This document shows positions 261 to 4,837 of a stretch of 63,538 nucleotides of DNA, in pieces; positions within the stretch are counted from its first letter, which is position 1; each line of letters begins with the position of its first letter. The notes below the pieces were generated by a model that saw only the letters and a list, made by a program, of their open reading frames with translations, had not been told where the DNA came from and ran no database searches. Made by a program: the position numbers and the translations under genes. Source of the stretch: Treponema sp. (GTDB lineage: Bacteria; Spirochaetota; Spirochaetia; Treponematales; Treponemataceae); NCBI GenBank assembly GCA_041670585.1, contig JBAXYY010000001.1, forward strand, positions 1-63,538. The letters are read 5' to 3'.

Positions 261-324
261 TTGCCCTATTACATTTAGTGGTGTATTATTATCCATAGTG
301 TTCGAAAAACGCTATATATGGACT
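261..324 (+). promoter_or_regulatory. Putative sigma70 promoter of nrdR-nrdD with NrdR box(es)
   Basis: TTGCCC(261)-N17-TATTAT(284); ACGCTATATATGGACT at 309-324 matches the NrdR consensus acaCwAtATaTwGtgt at 12/16; weaker box at 266-281. Confidence 0.55.
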
Positions 325-363: not shown

Positions 364-831
364 ATGCGCTGCCCTTACTGCGGAAGTCTTGACGACAAAG
401 TAATTGAATCACGAACAATGGCAAACGGAGAAAGCATCCGCCGAAGACGCGAGTGCATTAGCTGCGGCTATCGTTTCACAAGCTACGAGCATATTGAAGA
501 AAAGCCTTTCATGGTTGTAAAAAGGGACGGAAGACGCGAGCCTTTTGACAGGACAAAGCTTGAAAAGGGAATACAGCGCGCTCTTGAAAAACGCCCGGTC
601 TCAACTTCAATGGTTGACCAAATTGTAAATGAAATAGAGGACGAAGCTTACACCAAAGGCAAGGCCACAAGGGAAATCTCAACCACGGAATTAGGAGAGC
701 TTGTGCTGCAGAGGCTTCATGCAGTTGATAAAGTTGCATATATAAGATTCGCAAGTGTTTATAAGCATTTCAACAATCTTGATGAATTCATAAATGAGGT
801 AAATAAGTTGGGAGGGGAAAAAAGTGAGTGA
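364..831 (+). CDS. nrdR: Transcriptional repressor NrdR
   Basis: MRCPYC...RRRRECxxCxxRFTSYE zinc ribbon, ATP cone, VAYIRFASVY. Confidence 0.97.
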   Translation: MRCPYCGSLDDKVIESRTMANGESIRRRRECISCGYRFTSYEHIEEKPFMVVKRDGRREPFDRTKLEKGIQRALEKRPVSTSMVDQIVNEIEDEAYTKGKATREISTTELGELVLQRLHAVDKVAYIRFASVYKHFNNLDEFINEVNKLGGEKSE

Positions 832-2947
832 ACAGTCTGTGTTCCCTGAGTGGAAAAGCTTCCTAGGGACAAACAAAGATGCAGAAACTGCGCATTTTTT
901 AACTAAAGTTGTAAAAAGGTCAGGCGAAATTGCAAACTATGACCGCAGCAAAATTGAAAGCGCTATTGGCAAGGCAATTACAGCCGTTGAAAAGCGTGCA
1001 AACCCGGACAAGGCGCAAATGCTCACTGACCAGGTGGAAGAGCATTTAAGAGTGCTTCTTGCGGGGCGGCGAGCACATTCAATTCCAGCAATTGAAGAGA
1101 TTCAGGACACTGTGGAAACAGTTCTCATTGAATGCAAGGAAGTCGAAGTCGCAAAGGCCTACATTCTTTACCGCGCAAAGCATGACGCTATGAGGGACGC
1201 AAAAAGCCTCATGGTTGACATCTCTAAGACAATGGACGGCTACCTTTCACAGAGCGACTGGCGTGTCAATGAAAACGCGAACGTCAACTTCTCATTGGGC
1301 GGCCTTATTCTCCACAACTCAGGAACTGTAACAGCGAACTACTGGCTTAAAAACATATACACACCTGAAATTGCAAACGCACATGAAACTTGCGCATTCC
1401 ATATACACGACCTTTCCATGTTCTCTGGATACTGCGCCGGCTGGTCATTAAGGCAGCTTATACAGGAAGGTCTTGGCGGAGTTCCAGACAAAATCACTTC
1501 TACCCCTGCCACACACCTTTCCACCCTTGTTAACCAGATTGTCAACTTTTTAGGCATTATGCAGAACGAATGGGCGGGCGCTCAGGCTTTCTCTTCTTTC
1601 GACACATACCTTGCTCCTTTTGTTAAAAAAGACAACCTTACAGAAAAACAGGTGCGCCAGTGCATACAAAGCTACATCTACGGAGTGAACACGCCAAGCA
1701 GATGGGGCTCACAGGCACCTTTCACAAACATAACTCTTGACTGGGTCTGCCCTAACGACTTAAAGAACCAGAAGGCTATTGTTGGCGGCAAGGAGCAGGA
1801 CTTCACATACGGCGACTGTCAGAAGGAAATGGACTTGATCAACAAGCAGTTCATCAAGTTGATGCTGGAAGGAGATGCCGCGGGCAGAGGATTCGGCTAC
1901 CCTATTCCTACATACAATATCACAAAGGACTTCGACTGGGACAGCGAGAACGCACAGCTTCTTTTTGAAATGACAGCCCAGTACGGCACCCCTTACTTCC
2001 AGAACTTTGTGAACTCAGACTTAAACCCAAGCGACGTACGCTCAATGTGCTGCCGCCTTAGGCTTGACAAACGCGAGCTTCGTAAAAGAGGCGGCGGACT
2101 GTTCGGCTCCGACGAATTCACAGGCTCACTTGGAGTTGTTACAATCAACCTGCCGCAGATTGGCTATCTTGCAAAAAATGAAAAGGAATTCTACGCGCGT
2201 CTAGACTATCTTATGGACCTTGCGCGTGACAGCCTTTCTATAAAAAGAAAAGTCATACAAAAGCTTTTTGACGGCGGGCTCTACCCTTACACAAGGCGCT
2301 ACCTTAAAAACTTCAACAACCACTTCAACACAATTGGATTATGCGGCATGAACGAATGCTGCCTTAACTTCCTTGGAGTGAACATTGCAGATGAAAAAGG
2401 CAAGCAGTTCGCGTGCGATGTCCTGGACCACATGAGAAACAGGCTGCAGGACTATCAGGAAAAGACAGGAGAGCTCTTTAACCTAGAGGCCACCCCTGCG
2501 GAAAGCACAAGCTACCGTTTGGCACGCCACGACAAGCAGAACTTCCCTGACATAATCACAAGCGGAACAGACGACCCGTTCTACACAAACAGCACACAGC
2601 TACCTGTAGACTACACTTCAGACATTTTTGAAGCGCTTGACCATCAGGAGGCACTGCAGACAAAGTACACAGGCGGAACTGTATTCCACACATTCATGGG
2701 CGAGCAGATAAAGGACTGGAAGGCTTGCCGTGACTTGGTGCGCACAATAATGAGCAACTACCGCATACCTTATGTGACAATAAGCCCAACCTACTCAATC
2801 TGCAAAATCCACGGCTATCTTAACGGACAGCAGTTCGAATGCCCAAAATGCAAGGCGGAAAAGGAGCAGGCGTTAAAGGCAAAGCTTGCGTCGCTTGAAG
2901 CAGAGCGTGATCAGGTTGAAGCTTCGCAGAGCAACGTAAACGCTTAA
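824..2947 (+). CDS. nrdD: Class III (anaerobic) ribonucleoside-triphosphate reductase, large catalytic subunit lacking the glycyl-radical loop
   Basis: N-terminal ATP cone, HIHDL, GYCAGW, SMCCRL finger loop, NLEATPAES, YTGGTVFH, CxxH...CPxC zinc site; no RIVGYY motif before the stop; GTG start overlaps the nrdR 3' end. Confidence 0.95.
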   Translation: MSEQSVFPEWKSFLGTNKDAETAHFLTKVVKRSGEIANYDRSKIESAIGKAITAVEKRANPDKAQMLTDQVEEHLRVLLAGRRAHSIPAIEEIQDTVETVLIECKEVEVAKAYILYRAKHDAMRDAKSLMVDISKTMDGYLSQSDWRVNENANVNFSLGGLILHNSGTVTANYWLKNIYTPEIANAHETCAFHIHDLSMFSGYCAGWSLRQLIQEGLGGVPDKITSTPATHLSTLVNQIVNFLGIMQNEWAGAQAFSSFDTYLAPFVKKDNLTEKQVRQCIQSYIYGVNTPSRWGSQAPFTNITLDWVCPNDLKNQKAIVGGKEQDFTYGDCQKEMDLINKQFIKLMLEGDAAGRGFGYPIPTYNITKDFDWDSENAQLLFEMTAQYGTPYFQNFVNSDLNPSDVRSMCCRLRLDKRELRKRGGGLFGSDEFTGSLGVVTINLPQIGYLAKNEKEFYARLDYLMDLARDSLSIKRKVIQKLFDGGLYPYTRRYLKNFNNHFNTIGLCGMNECCLNFLGVNIADEKGKQFACDVLDHMRNRLQDYQEKTGELFNLEATPAESTSYRLARHDKQNFPDIITSGTDDPFYTNSTQLPVDYTSDIFEALDHQEALQTKYTGGTVFHTFMGEQIKDWKACRDLVRTIMSNYRIPYVTISPTYSICKIHGYLNGQQFECPKCKAEKEQALKAKLASLEAERDQVEASQSNVNA

Positions 2948-2963
2948 AAATGATTAAATAAAA

Positions 2964-2998
2964 GGCATAAAGCTATAAAGTATTAACGGCTTTATGTC
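2964..2998 (+). terminator. Hairpin after nrdD (possible terminator or processing stem)
   Basis: GGCATAAAGCT...GGCTTTATGTC inverted repeat; weak U-tract. Confidence 0.45.
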
Positions 2999-3052
2999 GA
3001 AATATAGTGTAGTTTGCTTTACAAAAGAGTAAAACTACGCTATATTTAGTGT
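2995..3052 (+). promoter_or_regulatory. Tandem NrdR boxes and sigma70 promoter for the glycyl-radical subunit gene
   Basis: TGTCGAAATATAGTGT (2995-3010, 11/16) and ACGCTATATTTAGTGT (3037-3052, 14/16), 42 bp apart; TTTACA(3018)-N17-TATATT(3041) overlaps the second box. Confidence 0.75.
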
Positions 3053-3175
3053 ACTTAAAGGCTGTTAAAGGCCCGCACTAAAATATATAAAAAACGTAAT
3101 GTCATTACGTGCAAAGTTTTGAATTATGCCCTGTAAAGCCAGGGAAGTAAAGTAATTCTCGGGAGGATATTACTT

Positions 3176-3754
3176 ATGGAAACAGCAAAAAGAACATTGG
3201 CACAAATCGATGCCGAAATCGCAGAGACAAAGGACGAGCTAAAGAACGTCCATGGAACAGAAACAGAAGTCTACGCAAGAATCGTAGGCTACTACCGTGC
3301 TGTACGCAACTGGAACAAAGGCAAGCGTGATGAATTTGACCACCGCAAGATGTTCTCAATTGAAGACAGCAAGGAATATAATATTACAGAAGCAGACGGC
3401 GCTGATTGTGGCTGCAAAATGGAAAATGTAACAAAAGCAGCAAAATCTTCAACAGCCGCAACAGTGGCTTCAAATTTAGTGTCAGGAGAAACAGCCGCAA
3501 GCTACGAGATGTTTGTTAGACAAACATGCCCTAACTGCCCTCCTGTAAAACAGTACATGGCAAATGTAAGCATTGCAGGAAAATCAATTGATGTTGACAC
3601 AGACGCAGGCCTCCAGCTAGCAGCCGCAAAAGGAGTGTTTGCAACTCCAACAGTAATAATCTACAGCCAGACAGGCGCGGAAATTGGAAGAGCGCATACA
3701 ACTTCAGAGCTTGACGACATTCTTGTCACAGCAAAAGAAGCAGTTCTAGCTTAA
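3176..3754 (+). CDS. Stand-alone NrdD glycyl-radical domain fused to a C-terminal glutaredoxin/thioredoxin-like domain
   Basis: RBS GGGAGGA; TEVYARIVGYYRAVRNWNKGKRDEFDHR is the NrdD C-terminal Gly-radical motif; C-terminal CPNCPPVK...IDVD...GVFATPTVII redoxin-like fold. Confidence 0.88.
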   Translation: METAKRTLAQIDAEIAETKDELKNVHGTETEVYARIVGYYRAVRNWNKGKRDEFDHRKMFSIEDSKEYNITEADGADCGCKMENVTKAAKSSTAATVASNLVSGETAASYEMFVRQTCPNCPPVKQYMANVSIAGKSIDVDTDAGLQLAAAKGVFATPTVIIYSQTGAEIGRAHTTSELDDILVTAKEAVLA

Positions 3755-3910: not shown

Positions 3911-4699
3911 ATGTCAGACAATCTTTTAGACACACCAGCAGGCTCTTTAATAAAAACAACACTTGTTGACTTTCCAAGCAGGGTCGCAAGCACAATATTC
4001 TTGGAAGGATGCAACCTACGCTGCCCCTACTGCTACAACACAAGCCTTGTCCTGGGCACTCAAAAATCAAATGAAGCGCCTGCAAAAGAAAACAACTTCA
4101 ACAGGGACTACAAATGCTCAACGTTACGAGAGGCCATAGATCACCTTGAAAAACGCCGCAATGTTCTTACAGGCCTTGTAATTTCAGGCGGGGAGCCTCT
4201 TTTGAACCCACGAACGCCTGTTTTAATAAAGGAAGCAAAAAAACTTGGATATAAAATAAAGCTAGACACAAACGGCACTCTTCCAGACAGGCTTCAGTCG
4301 TTCATAGAGGACGACGAGCTAAAGCCAGACTACATTGCAATGGACATAAAGACTTCACCTTCAAGATCATATCTTCTTGCAAGCGAGTCATCTAAAAAAG
4401 ATGCCGATGTAAAAGACGAGCTTGAGCATTCAATAGAACGCTCTGTAAAAATAATATCGCAGTTCCCAAAAGACTGCCGTGAATGGCGAACAGTTCTTGT
4501 GCCGCCGCTTGTAAAAGAAGAAGACATAAAAGAAATAGCCGCTGTTCTTCCAAAAGATGCACGTTGGTACTTTGCCCAGTTCAGAAATGAAAACTGCATA
4601 GACCCTTCATACAACAAGATCGACCCTTACTTGGACAGGGACTTAAAGCGCCTAGTAGAATACGCCAAATCGCTAATAGAAGGCGCCGAATTCCGCTAA
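3911..4699 (+). CDS. nrdG: Anaerobic RNR activating enzyme (radical SAM)
   Basis: TLVDFP, GCNLRCPYC (CxxxCxxC), SGGEP, KLDTNG, AMDIKT; ATG 3911 preferred over GTG 3896. Confidence 0.92.
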   Translation: MSDNLLDTPAGSLIKTTLVDFPSRVASTIFLEGCNLRCPYCYNTSLVLGTQKSNEAPAKENNFNRDYKCSTLREAIDHLEKRRNVLTGLVISGGEPLLNPRTPVLIKEAKKLGYKIKLDTNGTLPDRLQSFIEDDELKPDYIAMDIKTSPSRSYLLASESSKKDADVKDELEHSIERSVKIISQFPKDCREWRTVLVPPLVKEEDIKEIAAVLPKDARWYFAQFRNENCIDPSYNKIDPYLDRDLKRLVEYAKSLIEGAEFR

Positions 4700-4746: not shown

Positions 4747-4758
4747 CTCAACATTCGT

Positions 4759-4831
4759 GGTGGCATAGTTCAGTTGGTAGAACAACGGACTCATATTCCG
4801 TATGTCAGAGGTTCGATCCCTCTTGCCACTA
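4759..4831 (+). tRNA. tRNA with CAT anticodon (probably elongator Met; Ile2 not excluded)
   Basis: GGTGGCA/TGCCACT acceptor stem, ACGGA-CTCATAT-TCCGT anticodon arm, GGTTCGATCC T arm. Confidence 0.9.
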
Positions 4832-4837
4832 AACATA

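What the first reader, a model, noticed from the sequence alone, without database searches (positions are those of the whole stretch)
824..3754. Split class III ribonucleotide reductase: glycyl-radical loop on a separate, separately regulated gene
Seen: NrdD (707 aa) has the ATP cone, barrel, finger loop and CxxH/CxxC zinc site, then ends in an amphipathic helix (KEQALKAKLASLEAERDQVEA) with no Gly-radical motif. The missing motif (TEVYARIVGYYRAVRNWNKGKRDEF) is in the next gene, 228 bp downstream. That gene has its own RBS, promoter and NrdR boxes, and begins with a second amphipathic helix (KRTLAQIDAEIAETKDELKNV), so this is not a simple frameshift. Established: in canonical NrdD this loop is the C-terminus of the same chain. 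O2 cleaves glycyl-radical enzymes at the radical Gly, and pyruvate formate-lyase is repaired by the stand-alone spare part GrcA/YfiD. Inference: the two helices form a docking coiled-coil, making the O2-labile radical carrier a small replaceable subunit of a two-chain RNR.
Basis: partly seen in the sequence, partly recalled or inferred. Interest (0 to 1): 0.9.

Follow-up and report, generated by a model that had tools for sequence, protein, structure and literature searches.

The report
Two-chain anaerobic ribonucleotide reductase, helix-docked
The oxygen-sensitive enzyme that makes DNA building blocks is encoded here as two proteins, a large catalytic body and a small protein carrying the likely radical glycine plus a thioredoxin-like domain, predicted to clip together through two matching helices; the layout is conserved in many spirochaetes and I found no paper describing it.

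Summary
Observation confirmed. NrdD (824-2947) stops after its zinc site.

It is not an error or decay. Seven in-frame stops separate the genes, and contigs of two public runs carry the stop. 36 further loci share the layout, in all three frames. In five genomes of one genus the small gene lies far from nrdD. In 11 of 30 genomes it is the only RNR found.

Helix docking is supported but not shown: conserved hydrophobic stripes, charge anticorrelation after phylogenetic correction, a complex score of 0.87 against 0.00 for the best control, a natural one-chain form with both helices, and re-fused forms that lose both.

Separate NrdR boxes are real here but occur in only 8 of 37 loci. The spare-part role is untested, and frequent re-fusion argues against a strong advantage.

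Ten literature searches found no description. This scan found the same layout before on other DNA, and some earlier claims about split NrdD were marked 'in doubt'. Verdict: new variant of class III RNR.

The parts
266..324 (+). NrdR box pair upstream of nrdR (266-281 weak, 309-324), 27-bp linker
   Evidence: key positions and linker lengths from PMC13584703
364..831 (+). nrdR repressor, overlapping the nrdD start
   Evidence: TIGR00244 188 bits
824..2947 (+). Large catalytic chain of class III RNR (707 aa; ATP cone, barrel, zinc site; no glycyl-radical loop)
2042..2056 (+). Finger loop SMCCR (C409, C410), double-cysteine type
   Evidence: invariant in 37 of 37
2486..2488 (+). E555, aligned with T. 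maritima NrdD E495 (its role as active-site proton source is recalled)
   Evidence: alignment; invariant in 37 of 37
2801..2851 (+). Zinc site C660-x2-H663 ... C673-x2-C676
2852..2929 (+). C-terminal amphipathic docking helix (L684, L688, L691, V698)
2964..2998 (+). 11-bp hairpin after the nrdD stop, no U run on this strand; possible transcript end
   Evidence: z -3.14, 4 of 200 shuffles as good
2995..3010 (+). NrdR box 1 of the internal promoter
3018..3046 (+). sigma70-like promoter TTTACA-17-TATATT
   Evidence: consensus match only
3037..3052 (+). NrdR box 2, overlapping the -10 element
3161..3166 (+). Shine-Dalgarno GGGAGG
3176..3754 (+). Small chain (192 aa): docking helix, glycyl-radical loop, variable linker, thioredoxin-fold domain
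3188..3253 (+). N-terminal amphipathic docking helix (L8, I11, I15, L22, V25)
3260..3361 (+). Glycyl-radical loop TEVYARIVGYY...WNKGK; G38 at 3287-3289 is the inferred radical site
   Evidence: PF13597 532-562; R35-I36-V37-G38-Y39 invariant in 37 of 37
3494..3745 (+). Thioredoxin/glutaredoxin-fold domain, CPNC at 3527-3538, TP motif at P158
3778..3821 (+). Terminator-like hairpin plus U run between the small gene and nrdG
   Evidence: z -3.65, 0 of 200 shuffles as good
3911..4699 (+). nrdG radical-SAM activase (NrdG2 type)
   Evidence: TIGR02495 140 bits, cut-off 131

Best explanation
This is a class III ribonucleotide reductase encoded as two separate chains, in which the small chain is predicted to clip onto the large one through a helix pair and likely supplies the radical glycine that the large chain lacks. 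Shown by sequence: the two genes, the split point between the zinc site and the radical loop, the conserved helices and the CPNC domain. Predicted (about 0.85): the large chain's last helix and the small chain's first helix form an antiparallel pair, and the small chain's TEVY strand completes the zinc-finger sheet, restoring the geometry of a one-chain NrdD. Inferred from homology (about 0.9): NrdG installs the radical on G38, which is relayed to a finger-loop cysteine. Inferred (about 0.55): the C204/finger-loop disulfide formed in turnover is reduced by the tethered thioredoxin-like domain, which the genome's thioredoxin reductase would recycle. In this lineage an internal NrdR-controlled promoter would let the small chain and NrdG be made independently of the large chain.
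For: Conservation: of 85 loci classified, 37 have the large-chain helix plus a small chain with helix, loop and CxxC domain (I chose these loci, so this is not a frequency). Gaps run from -4 to 240 nt in all three frames, each with an SD-like site. 1337 near-length homologues were found; 120 of 120 listed keep loop, helix register and CxxC. Function in trans: in 5 of 5 g15 genomes (4 single-contig) the small gene sits with nrdG away from nrdR-nrdD, about 95-600 kb in the closed genomes. Need: in 11 of 30 genomes picked for having only the split PF13597 pair, no class I/II RNR was found (completeness 76-100%). Docking: large-hydrophobic fractions are 0.97, 1.00, 0.97, 0.81 at large 684/688/691/698 and 0.81, 0.95, 1.00, 1.00, 0.97 at small 8/11/15/22/25. 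Helix net charges anticorrelate: contrasts r -0.51, p 0.015, 23 of 29 opposite; three control pairs were not significant. The complex scored 0.87 against best control 0.00 (mark reached by 116 of 157 solved and 2 of 215 mismatched pairs); runs agree in at least 92% of contacts, partner pLDDT at least 83, and both helix stripes are in the interface. One-chain P0123/P0178 carry both helices joined by a short loop, modelled as H675-694 and H701-716 at pLDDT 82-95. One-chain P0181 lacks both helices while split proteins 94-95% identical to it keep the large-chain helix. Reductant: C118 and C121 are invariant in 37 of 37; the enzyme is double-cysteine type with E555; a TrxR passes TIGR01292; a Grx fused to NrdB works as reductant (PMC6187632).
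Against: No biochemistry exists for this pair. The complex pass may partly reflect likeness to solved one-chain NrdD. C409/C410 are not among the confident interface residues, and the finger-loop region has low pLDDT (51-70) in the one-chain model. The CxxC domain is missing in g15, so it is dispensable there, and the MCCR methionine would also allow formate as reductant. This genome also has an intact MGCR-type NrdD with its own NrdG on C20, so the split enzyme is not shown to be essential here. An averaged hydrophobic-moment scan peaked at 142 and 153 degrees, not near 100. The 37 loci are related and include near-duplicates. P0123 and P0178 are near-identical, so they count as one case.
Confidence: 0.82

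Rival explanations
1. Spare part by design: the split was selected because O2 cleaves only the small chain, which is then swapped and re-made from its own promoter together with NrdG, sparing the 707-aa chain. This adds to the best explanation rather than replacing it.
For: The internal promoter and NrdR boxes drive the two O2-labile parts, small chain and NrdG. In g15 these two moved away together. A terminator-like hairpin follows the small gene. Splits at about this point arose in separate clades: helix type, short-peptide type and MGCR type. Some genomes with the short-peptide type hold extra unlinked copies. YfiD/Y06I is a precedent for PFL (PMC8683613).
Against: Boxes are found in only 8 of 37 linked loci. 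NrdR senses nucleotides, not oxygen (PMC9110341). G000 has one small gene. One-chain forms are nested repeatedly in the split clade: 10 changes, at least 5 forced by starred branches, including at 94-95% identity. After cleavage at G38, residues 1-37 (helix and strand) would likely stay bound and block exchange (inference).
Confidence: 0.3
2. The large chain carries its own radical glycine (the HGY glycine, G664), and the small protein is accessory. I recall that Siedow et al. 1999 proposed G650 in C. necator H16 from a G650A phenotype; I could not read that paper.
For: G664-Y665 is invariant in 37 of 37 large chains. A C. necator plasmid NrdD is 676 aa with G650 in CPTHGYL and no canonical loop. 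nrdDG is reported essential for full denitrification in H16 (PMC2864759).
Against: That glycine directly follows a zinc ligand and is equally present in 53 of 53 one-chain relatives that have the canonical loop, which points to a structural role. C. necator has a 66-aa loop-bearing gene between nrdD and nrdG. The canonical loop is invariant in the small chains.
Confidence: 0.04
3. Recoding (frameshift, read-through or splicing) joins the two ORFs into one chain.
For: A few relatives have short in-frame gaps, for example L044 with 3 nt.
Against: 7 in-frame stops here. Gaps of -4 to 240 nt in all frames, each with an SD-like site. The genes are unlinked in g15. No joint from the nrdD end to the small-gene start appears in four RNA-run assemblies (contigs show presence, not absence).
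Confidence: 0.03
4. Assembly error or strain-specific decay of a redundant gene.
For: The genome is an 83%-complete assembly with a second intact nrdD.
Against: The stop is reproduced in runs X2 and X4. The same split is in 12 of 24 other genomes of the genus (sequences read). Catalytic residues are invariant. It is the only RNR found in 11 of 30 genomes.
Confidence: 0.01

Closest known systems
One-chain double-cysteine class III RNR (T. maritima NrdD, PDB 4COI/4U3E; N. bacilliformis NrdD; NCBIfam PRK08270)
   Same: Barrel, double-cysteine finger loop, glutamate aligned with Tm E495, zinc site, loop motif, NrdG activase
   Different: The radical loop is on a second gene; a helix is added on each side of the split; a CxxC thioredoxin-fold domain follows the loop; there is an ATP cone and the MCCR methionine
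GrcA/YfiD of E. coli and Y06I of phage T4 (autonomous glycyl-radical cofactors of pyruvate formate-lyase)
   Same: A small stand-alone protein bearing a glycyl-radical loop that completes a large enzyme (PMC8683613)
   Different: YfiD duplicates a part that intact PFL has and acts after damage; here the large chain never has the loop, so the small chain would be obligatory. A 2026 review says formate lyases are the only GRE class with identified spare parts (PMC13450708)
Split class II RNR NrdJa/NrdJb of Pseudomonas aeruginosa
   Same: An RNR split near the C-terminus into two needed chains, the small one serving disulfide exchange (PMC4520616)
   Different: Different class; NrdJb holds no radical site. 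That 2015 paper calls it the only split RNR found in a non-viral organism
Glutaredoxin-RNR fusions (Facklamia ignava Grx-NrdB; one grx::nrdD in Lachnospiraceae TWA4)
   Same: A redoxin fused to an RNR component, shown to be a working reductant for NrdB (PMC6187632)
   Different: Here the redoxin is C-terminal to a class III radical loop, on a detached chain; the arrangement is common in spirochaetes and also occurs in one-chain NrdD-redoxin forms
Short-peptide split NrdD (C. necator plasmid WP_011154155.1 + WP_011154154.1; other spirochaete families)
   Same: Split at the same point, small gene before nrdG; NCBI labels the small protein nrdD without noting a split
   Different: About 40-66 aa peptides with no long docking helix and no redoxin; the spirochaete short type is a separate clade of large chains

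Membership tests
Class III RNR (NrdD/NrdG) | RNR/GRE ten-stranded barrel with finger-loop cysteine | tested here: met
   PF13597 5e-178, TIGR02487 491 bits over cut-off; the fold of one-chain relative P0123 matches 9D3X, 8P23, 4U3E
Class III RNR (NrdD/NrdG) | Zinc site before the radical loop | tested here: met
   C660, H663, C673, C676 invariant in 37 of 37
Class III RNR (NrdD/NrdG) | Glycyl-radical loop at the C-terminus of the same chain | tested here: not met
   The loop is on a separate gene; 7 in-frame stops
Class III RNR (NrdD/NrdG) | Dedicated radical-SAM activase NrdG nearby | tested here: met
   TIGR02495 over cut-off at 3911-4699
Class III RNR (NrdD/NrdG) | Glycyl radical by EPR and NTP reduction | not testable with these tools
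   Needs anaerobic biochemistry
Thioredoxin-dependent class III RNR | Double-cysteine finger loop plus beta-A cysteine plus active-site glutamate | tested here: met
   C409/C410, C204, E555; that Tm E495 is the relevant glutamate is recalled
Thioredoxin-dependent class III RNR | No finger-loop methionine (thioredoxin-only subclades) | tested here: not met
   SMCCR keeps M408, so formate use is not excluded
[quoted passage not shown] | PFL-type Gly-radical domain | tested here: not met
   The small chain hits PF13597 and redoxin families only at E<=0.1
[quoted passage not shown] | The partner enzyme has its own loop, replaced after O2 damage | tested here: not met
   The large chain lacks the loop
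[quoted passage not shown] | Restores activity after O2 cleavage | not testable with these tools
   Needs a rescue assay
Thioredoxin/glutaredoxin fold (NrdH-like) | Trx fold with CxxC and a TP motif | tested here: met
   CPNC and P158 invariant; pLDDT 94-98; Foldseek and HMM hits to Trx, Grx, NrdH; PF00462 21 bits, just under the 22.9 cut-off
Intron- or intein-split RNR | Intervening self-splicing element that rejoins the halves | tested here: inconclusive
   No Rfam search was run; but gaps of -4 to 240 nt and unlinked genes leave no room for a shared element

The most novel reading that the evidence does not exclude
The small chain is an obligate, exchangeable radical-and-redox cartridge: it carries both the O2-labile glycyl radical and the disulfide reductant, docks by a lineage-specific coiled coil, and is re-made with NrdG from its own promoter after oxygen damage. 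That would be a built-in spare-part system for a ribonucleotide reductase, one of several independent splits at the same point, and it would reassign the radical site of the C. necator enzyme.
Probability: 0.25. Interest if true: 0.9.

Novelty: new variant of a known kind. Interest (0 to 1): 0.7.

Why it matters
The papers I read describe class III RNR as one chain that oxygen destroys, name only class II as split in cells (2015), and know spare parts only for formate lyases (2026). A conserved two-chain form, apparently the only RNR of many spirochaetes, changes how these genes should be annotated: large chains look truncated and small chains are labelled hypothetical. It gives a small, separable NrdG substrate for studying radical installation and transfer. 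It makes the open question of spare parts beyond PFL directly testable, with natural one-chain and two-chain pairs at 95% identity as controls.

Tried and rejected
Hydrophobic-moment scan of the averaged helices: best angles 142 and 153 degrees, uninformative; the column counts were used instead.

RNA evidence: four RNA-run assemblies cover both genes, and summed contig depth is higher over the small gene in X14 and X16 (one study). The tool states that contig depth cannot rank genes, so I did not use it; no start site could be mapped.

In-frame one-chain candidates: several genomes showed long 'open frames' (G159, G184, G107, G137 and others). On reading the DNA they were split by a stop. Only five f31 loci are truly one-chain with a long linker. 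P0121 looks like a frameshifted join lacking the second CxxC and was left out of the tree.

Loci dropped before the count: L002-L004 (duplicates or the C20 gene) and five that my pattern missed. L040, L049 and L091 are short-peptide splits; L054 and L055 are unlinked.

Promoter scan alone is near chance. The NrdR pattern at 3 mismatches gave 16 hits against 10.4 expected; only rank, pairing and position are informative. My scoring used a recalled consensus, later checked.

Literature: 10 searches found no split class III RNR of this kind. Phage split nrdD cases in PMC3653736 are introns, inteins or one unexplained fragmentation. Siedow 1999 and Wei 2014 are not held. No supplements were opened; Table S1 of PMC6187632 and the Wei 2014 supplement could bear on novelty. 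Most subscription papers are outside the library. No Rfam search and no representative-library search were run.
Full report
Observation. The locus is nrdR (364-831), a 707-aa NrdD (824-2947), a 192-aa ORF (3176-3754) and nrdG (3911-4699). The large chain covers PF13597 positions 1-532 and the small ORF covers 532-562. The two are in one frame, 228 nt apart, with 7 stops between them. Contigs from runs X2 and X4 span the stop without differences; X2 may be the source sample. The small chain also has a thioredoxin-fold domain with CPNC after a variable linker: pLDDT 94-98, with hits to thioredoxins, glutaredoxins and NrdH.

Conservation. Among 40 relatives, 12 of 24 same-genus genomes and members of four other families show this split (sequences). 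In an even draw of 150 phylum genomes plus G000, 83 have PF13597. By my hand count 68 of these have a large match ending at position 525-539; five that I fetched proved one-chain with long linkers. Of 90 loci parsed, 85 were classified: 37 helix-plus-redoxin splits, one more with an N gap, 18 short-peptide splits, 3 MGCR-type splits and 26 one-chain genes. I picked these loci, so the counts are not frequencies. Gaps in the 37 run from -4 to 240 nt in all three frames. A protein search gave 1337 near-length homologues, and 120 of 120 listed keep loop, helix register and CxxC. In five g15 genomes the small gene (about 95 aa, no redoxin) sits with nrdG far from nrdR-nrdD, which excludes recoding there.

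Function. In 11 of 30 genomes chosen for having only the split pair, no class I/II RNR was found with PF02867 or PF17975 (not closed genomes, completeness 76-100%); 19 of 30 have one. G000 has a second, intact MGCR-type nrdD with its own nrdG and no class I/II hit. A C. necator plasmid enzyme is also split, and nrdDG is reported essential for full denitrification in H16 (PMC2864759, passages).

Docking. Both helices keep hydrophobic stripes at 3-4 residue spacing, although an averaged moment scan was uninformative. Their net charges anticorrelate (rho -0.64). This survives independent contrasts (r -0.51, p 0.015; 23 of 29), and three control pairs do not. The predicted complex of large residues 121-707, small residues 1-66 and zinc scored 0.87 against 0.00 for the best of three controls. 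That mark was reached by 116 of 157 solved and 2 of 215 mismatched pairs; runs agree in at least 92% of contacts, and partner pLDDT is at least 83. The interface includes stripes on large 677-702 and small 6-25, the TEVY strand against large 656-660, N155 of the NxN flap and E560. It does not list C409/C410. The loop part may pass by likeness to solved NrdD; no solved NrdD hit aligned over the helix region. In double-cysteine enzymes the finger loop is known to take two conformations (PMC9669993, section 2.5 read whole).

Natural one-chain forms add to this. In most, CxxH lies 25 residues before the loop motif, so an insert there must return to its starting point. P0123 has both helices joined by a short loop, which implies an antiparallel hairpin (inference). 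P0181 lacks both helices yet is 94-95% identical to split proteins.

Evolution. On a 106-row tree of the barrel core (quick method, SH-aLRT only, midpoint root), all helix-type splits fall in one 99-supported group of 54 rows. One-chain NrdD-redoxin forms lie outside it and several one-chain forms are nested within it; the label needs 10 changes, at least 5 forced. Short-peptide splits lie on another branch. The simplest reading (inference; the root is not established) is a redoxin fusion first, then one split with gain of helices, then repeated re-fusion.

Regulation. Two NrdR boxes (2995-3010, 3037-3052) have all six key bases and a 26-bp linker, a length that NrdR binds (PMC13584703, passages); the second overlaps the -10 element. 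Strong boxes occur in all 8 loci with gaps of 117 nt or more, in none of 29 with gaps up to 97 nt, and in 4 of 4 g15 loci scored. Hairpins flank the small gene. RNA contigs could not test expression.

Mechanism. Most likely (0.82) this is an obligate two-chain enzyme: helix pair and strand dock the loop, and NrdG makes the G38 radical, which is relayed to a finger-loop cysteine. The tethered redoxin is the likely reductant (about 0.55), given C204, C409/C410, E555, a thioredoxin reductase in the genome and the Grx-NrdB precedent (PMC6187632, passages). M408 leaves formate open, and g15 lacks the domain. The spare-part reading (0.3) fits the shared control of small chain and NrdG. It is weakened by re-fusion, by the single copy and by a remnant that would stay bound. 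The recalled G650 proposal maps to the glycine after a zinc ligand, which 53 of 53 one-chain relatives also have.

Novelty. Ten searches found no description. I saw passages only of PMC11226230, PMC9531940, PMC13450708, PMC13759103, PMC3019208, PMC2795772, PMC9110341, PMC3653736, PMC4520616, PMC12288474 and PMC8683613. Siedow 1999 and Wei 2014 were not available, and no supplements were read. Databases label small chains nrdD or hypothetical. This scan noted split NrdD 119 times, several marked 'in doubt' without a stated reason, and this same redoxin layout twice; these notes are not independent support. Verdict: real, a new variant of class III RNR, interest 0.7.

Noticed in passing
G000:C20:8243-11275 (L002): Second, intact MGCR (formate-type) nrdD with its own nrdG and the genome's best-scoring NrdR box; the genome carries both class III types.
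   Followed up: partly
L024, L025, L048: An MGCR-type NrdD also split between zinc site and radical loop (54-64 aa peptides), apparently an independent split.
   Followed up: partly
L108-L112, L114-L116: Unlinked stand-alone short glycyl-loop genes in G157, G170, G068, G096, G187 and G152, mostly extra to a linked copy; some neighbours look mobile or phage-like (not tested). L113 was missed by my pattern.
   Followed up: partly
L112, L117: Short glycyl-loop gene adjacent to a radical-SAM gene that does not look like the usual NrdG2, away from nrdD.
   Followed up: no
L042, L043, L046, L047, L050: One-chain NrdD with long, variable linkers between zinc region and radical loop, nested among short-peptide splits: likely re-fusion.
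   Followed up: partly
P0122-P0158, P0164: About 30 one-chain NrdD proteins with a C-terminal CxxC redoxin-like domain; the paper I read lists only one grx::nrdD fusion.
   Followed up: partly
L107:2189-4562: C. necator plasmid nrdD is split; its G650 sits in the zinc finger, and a 66-aa loop-bearing gene lies before nrdG.
   Followed up: partly
G000:C9:7479: Strong NrdR-like box just after a gyrase/topoisomerase A-like gene, with no RNR gene nearby.
   Followed up: no
window 4758-4832: tRNA-Met with its own promoter-like site directly after nrdG, followed by an ornithine carbamoyltransferase gene.
   Followed up: no
G056:C1:268525-270375; G016:C43; G051:C1: nrdD matches with an internal stop, not examined.
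   Followed up: no
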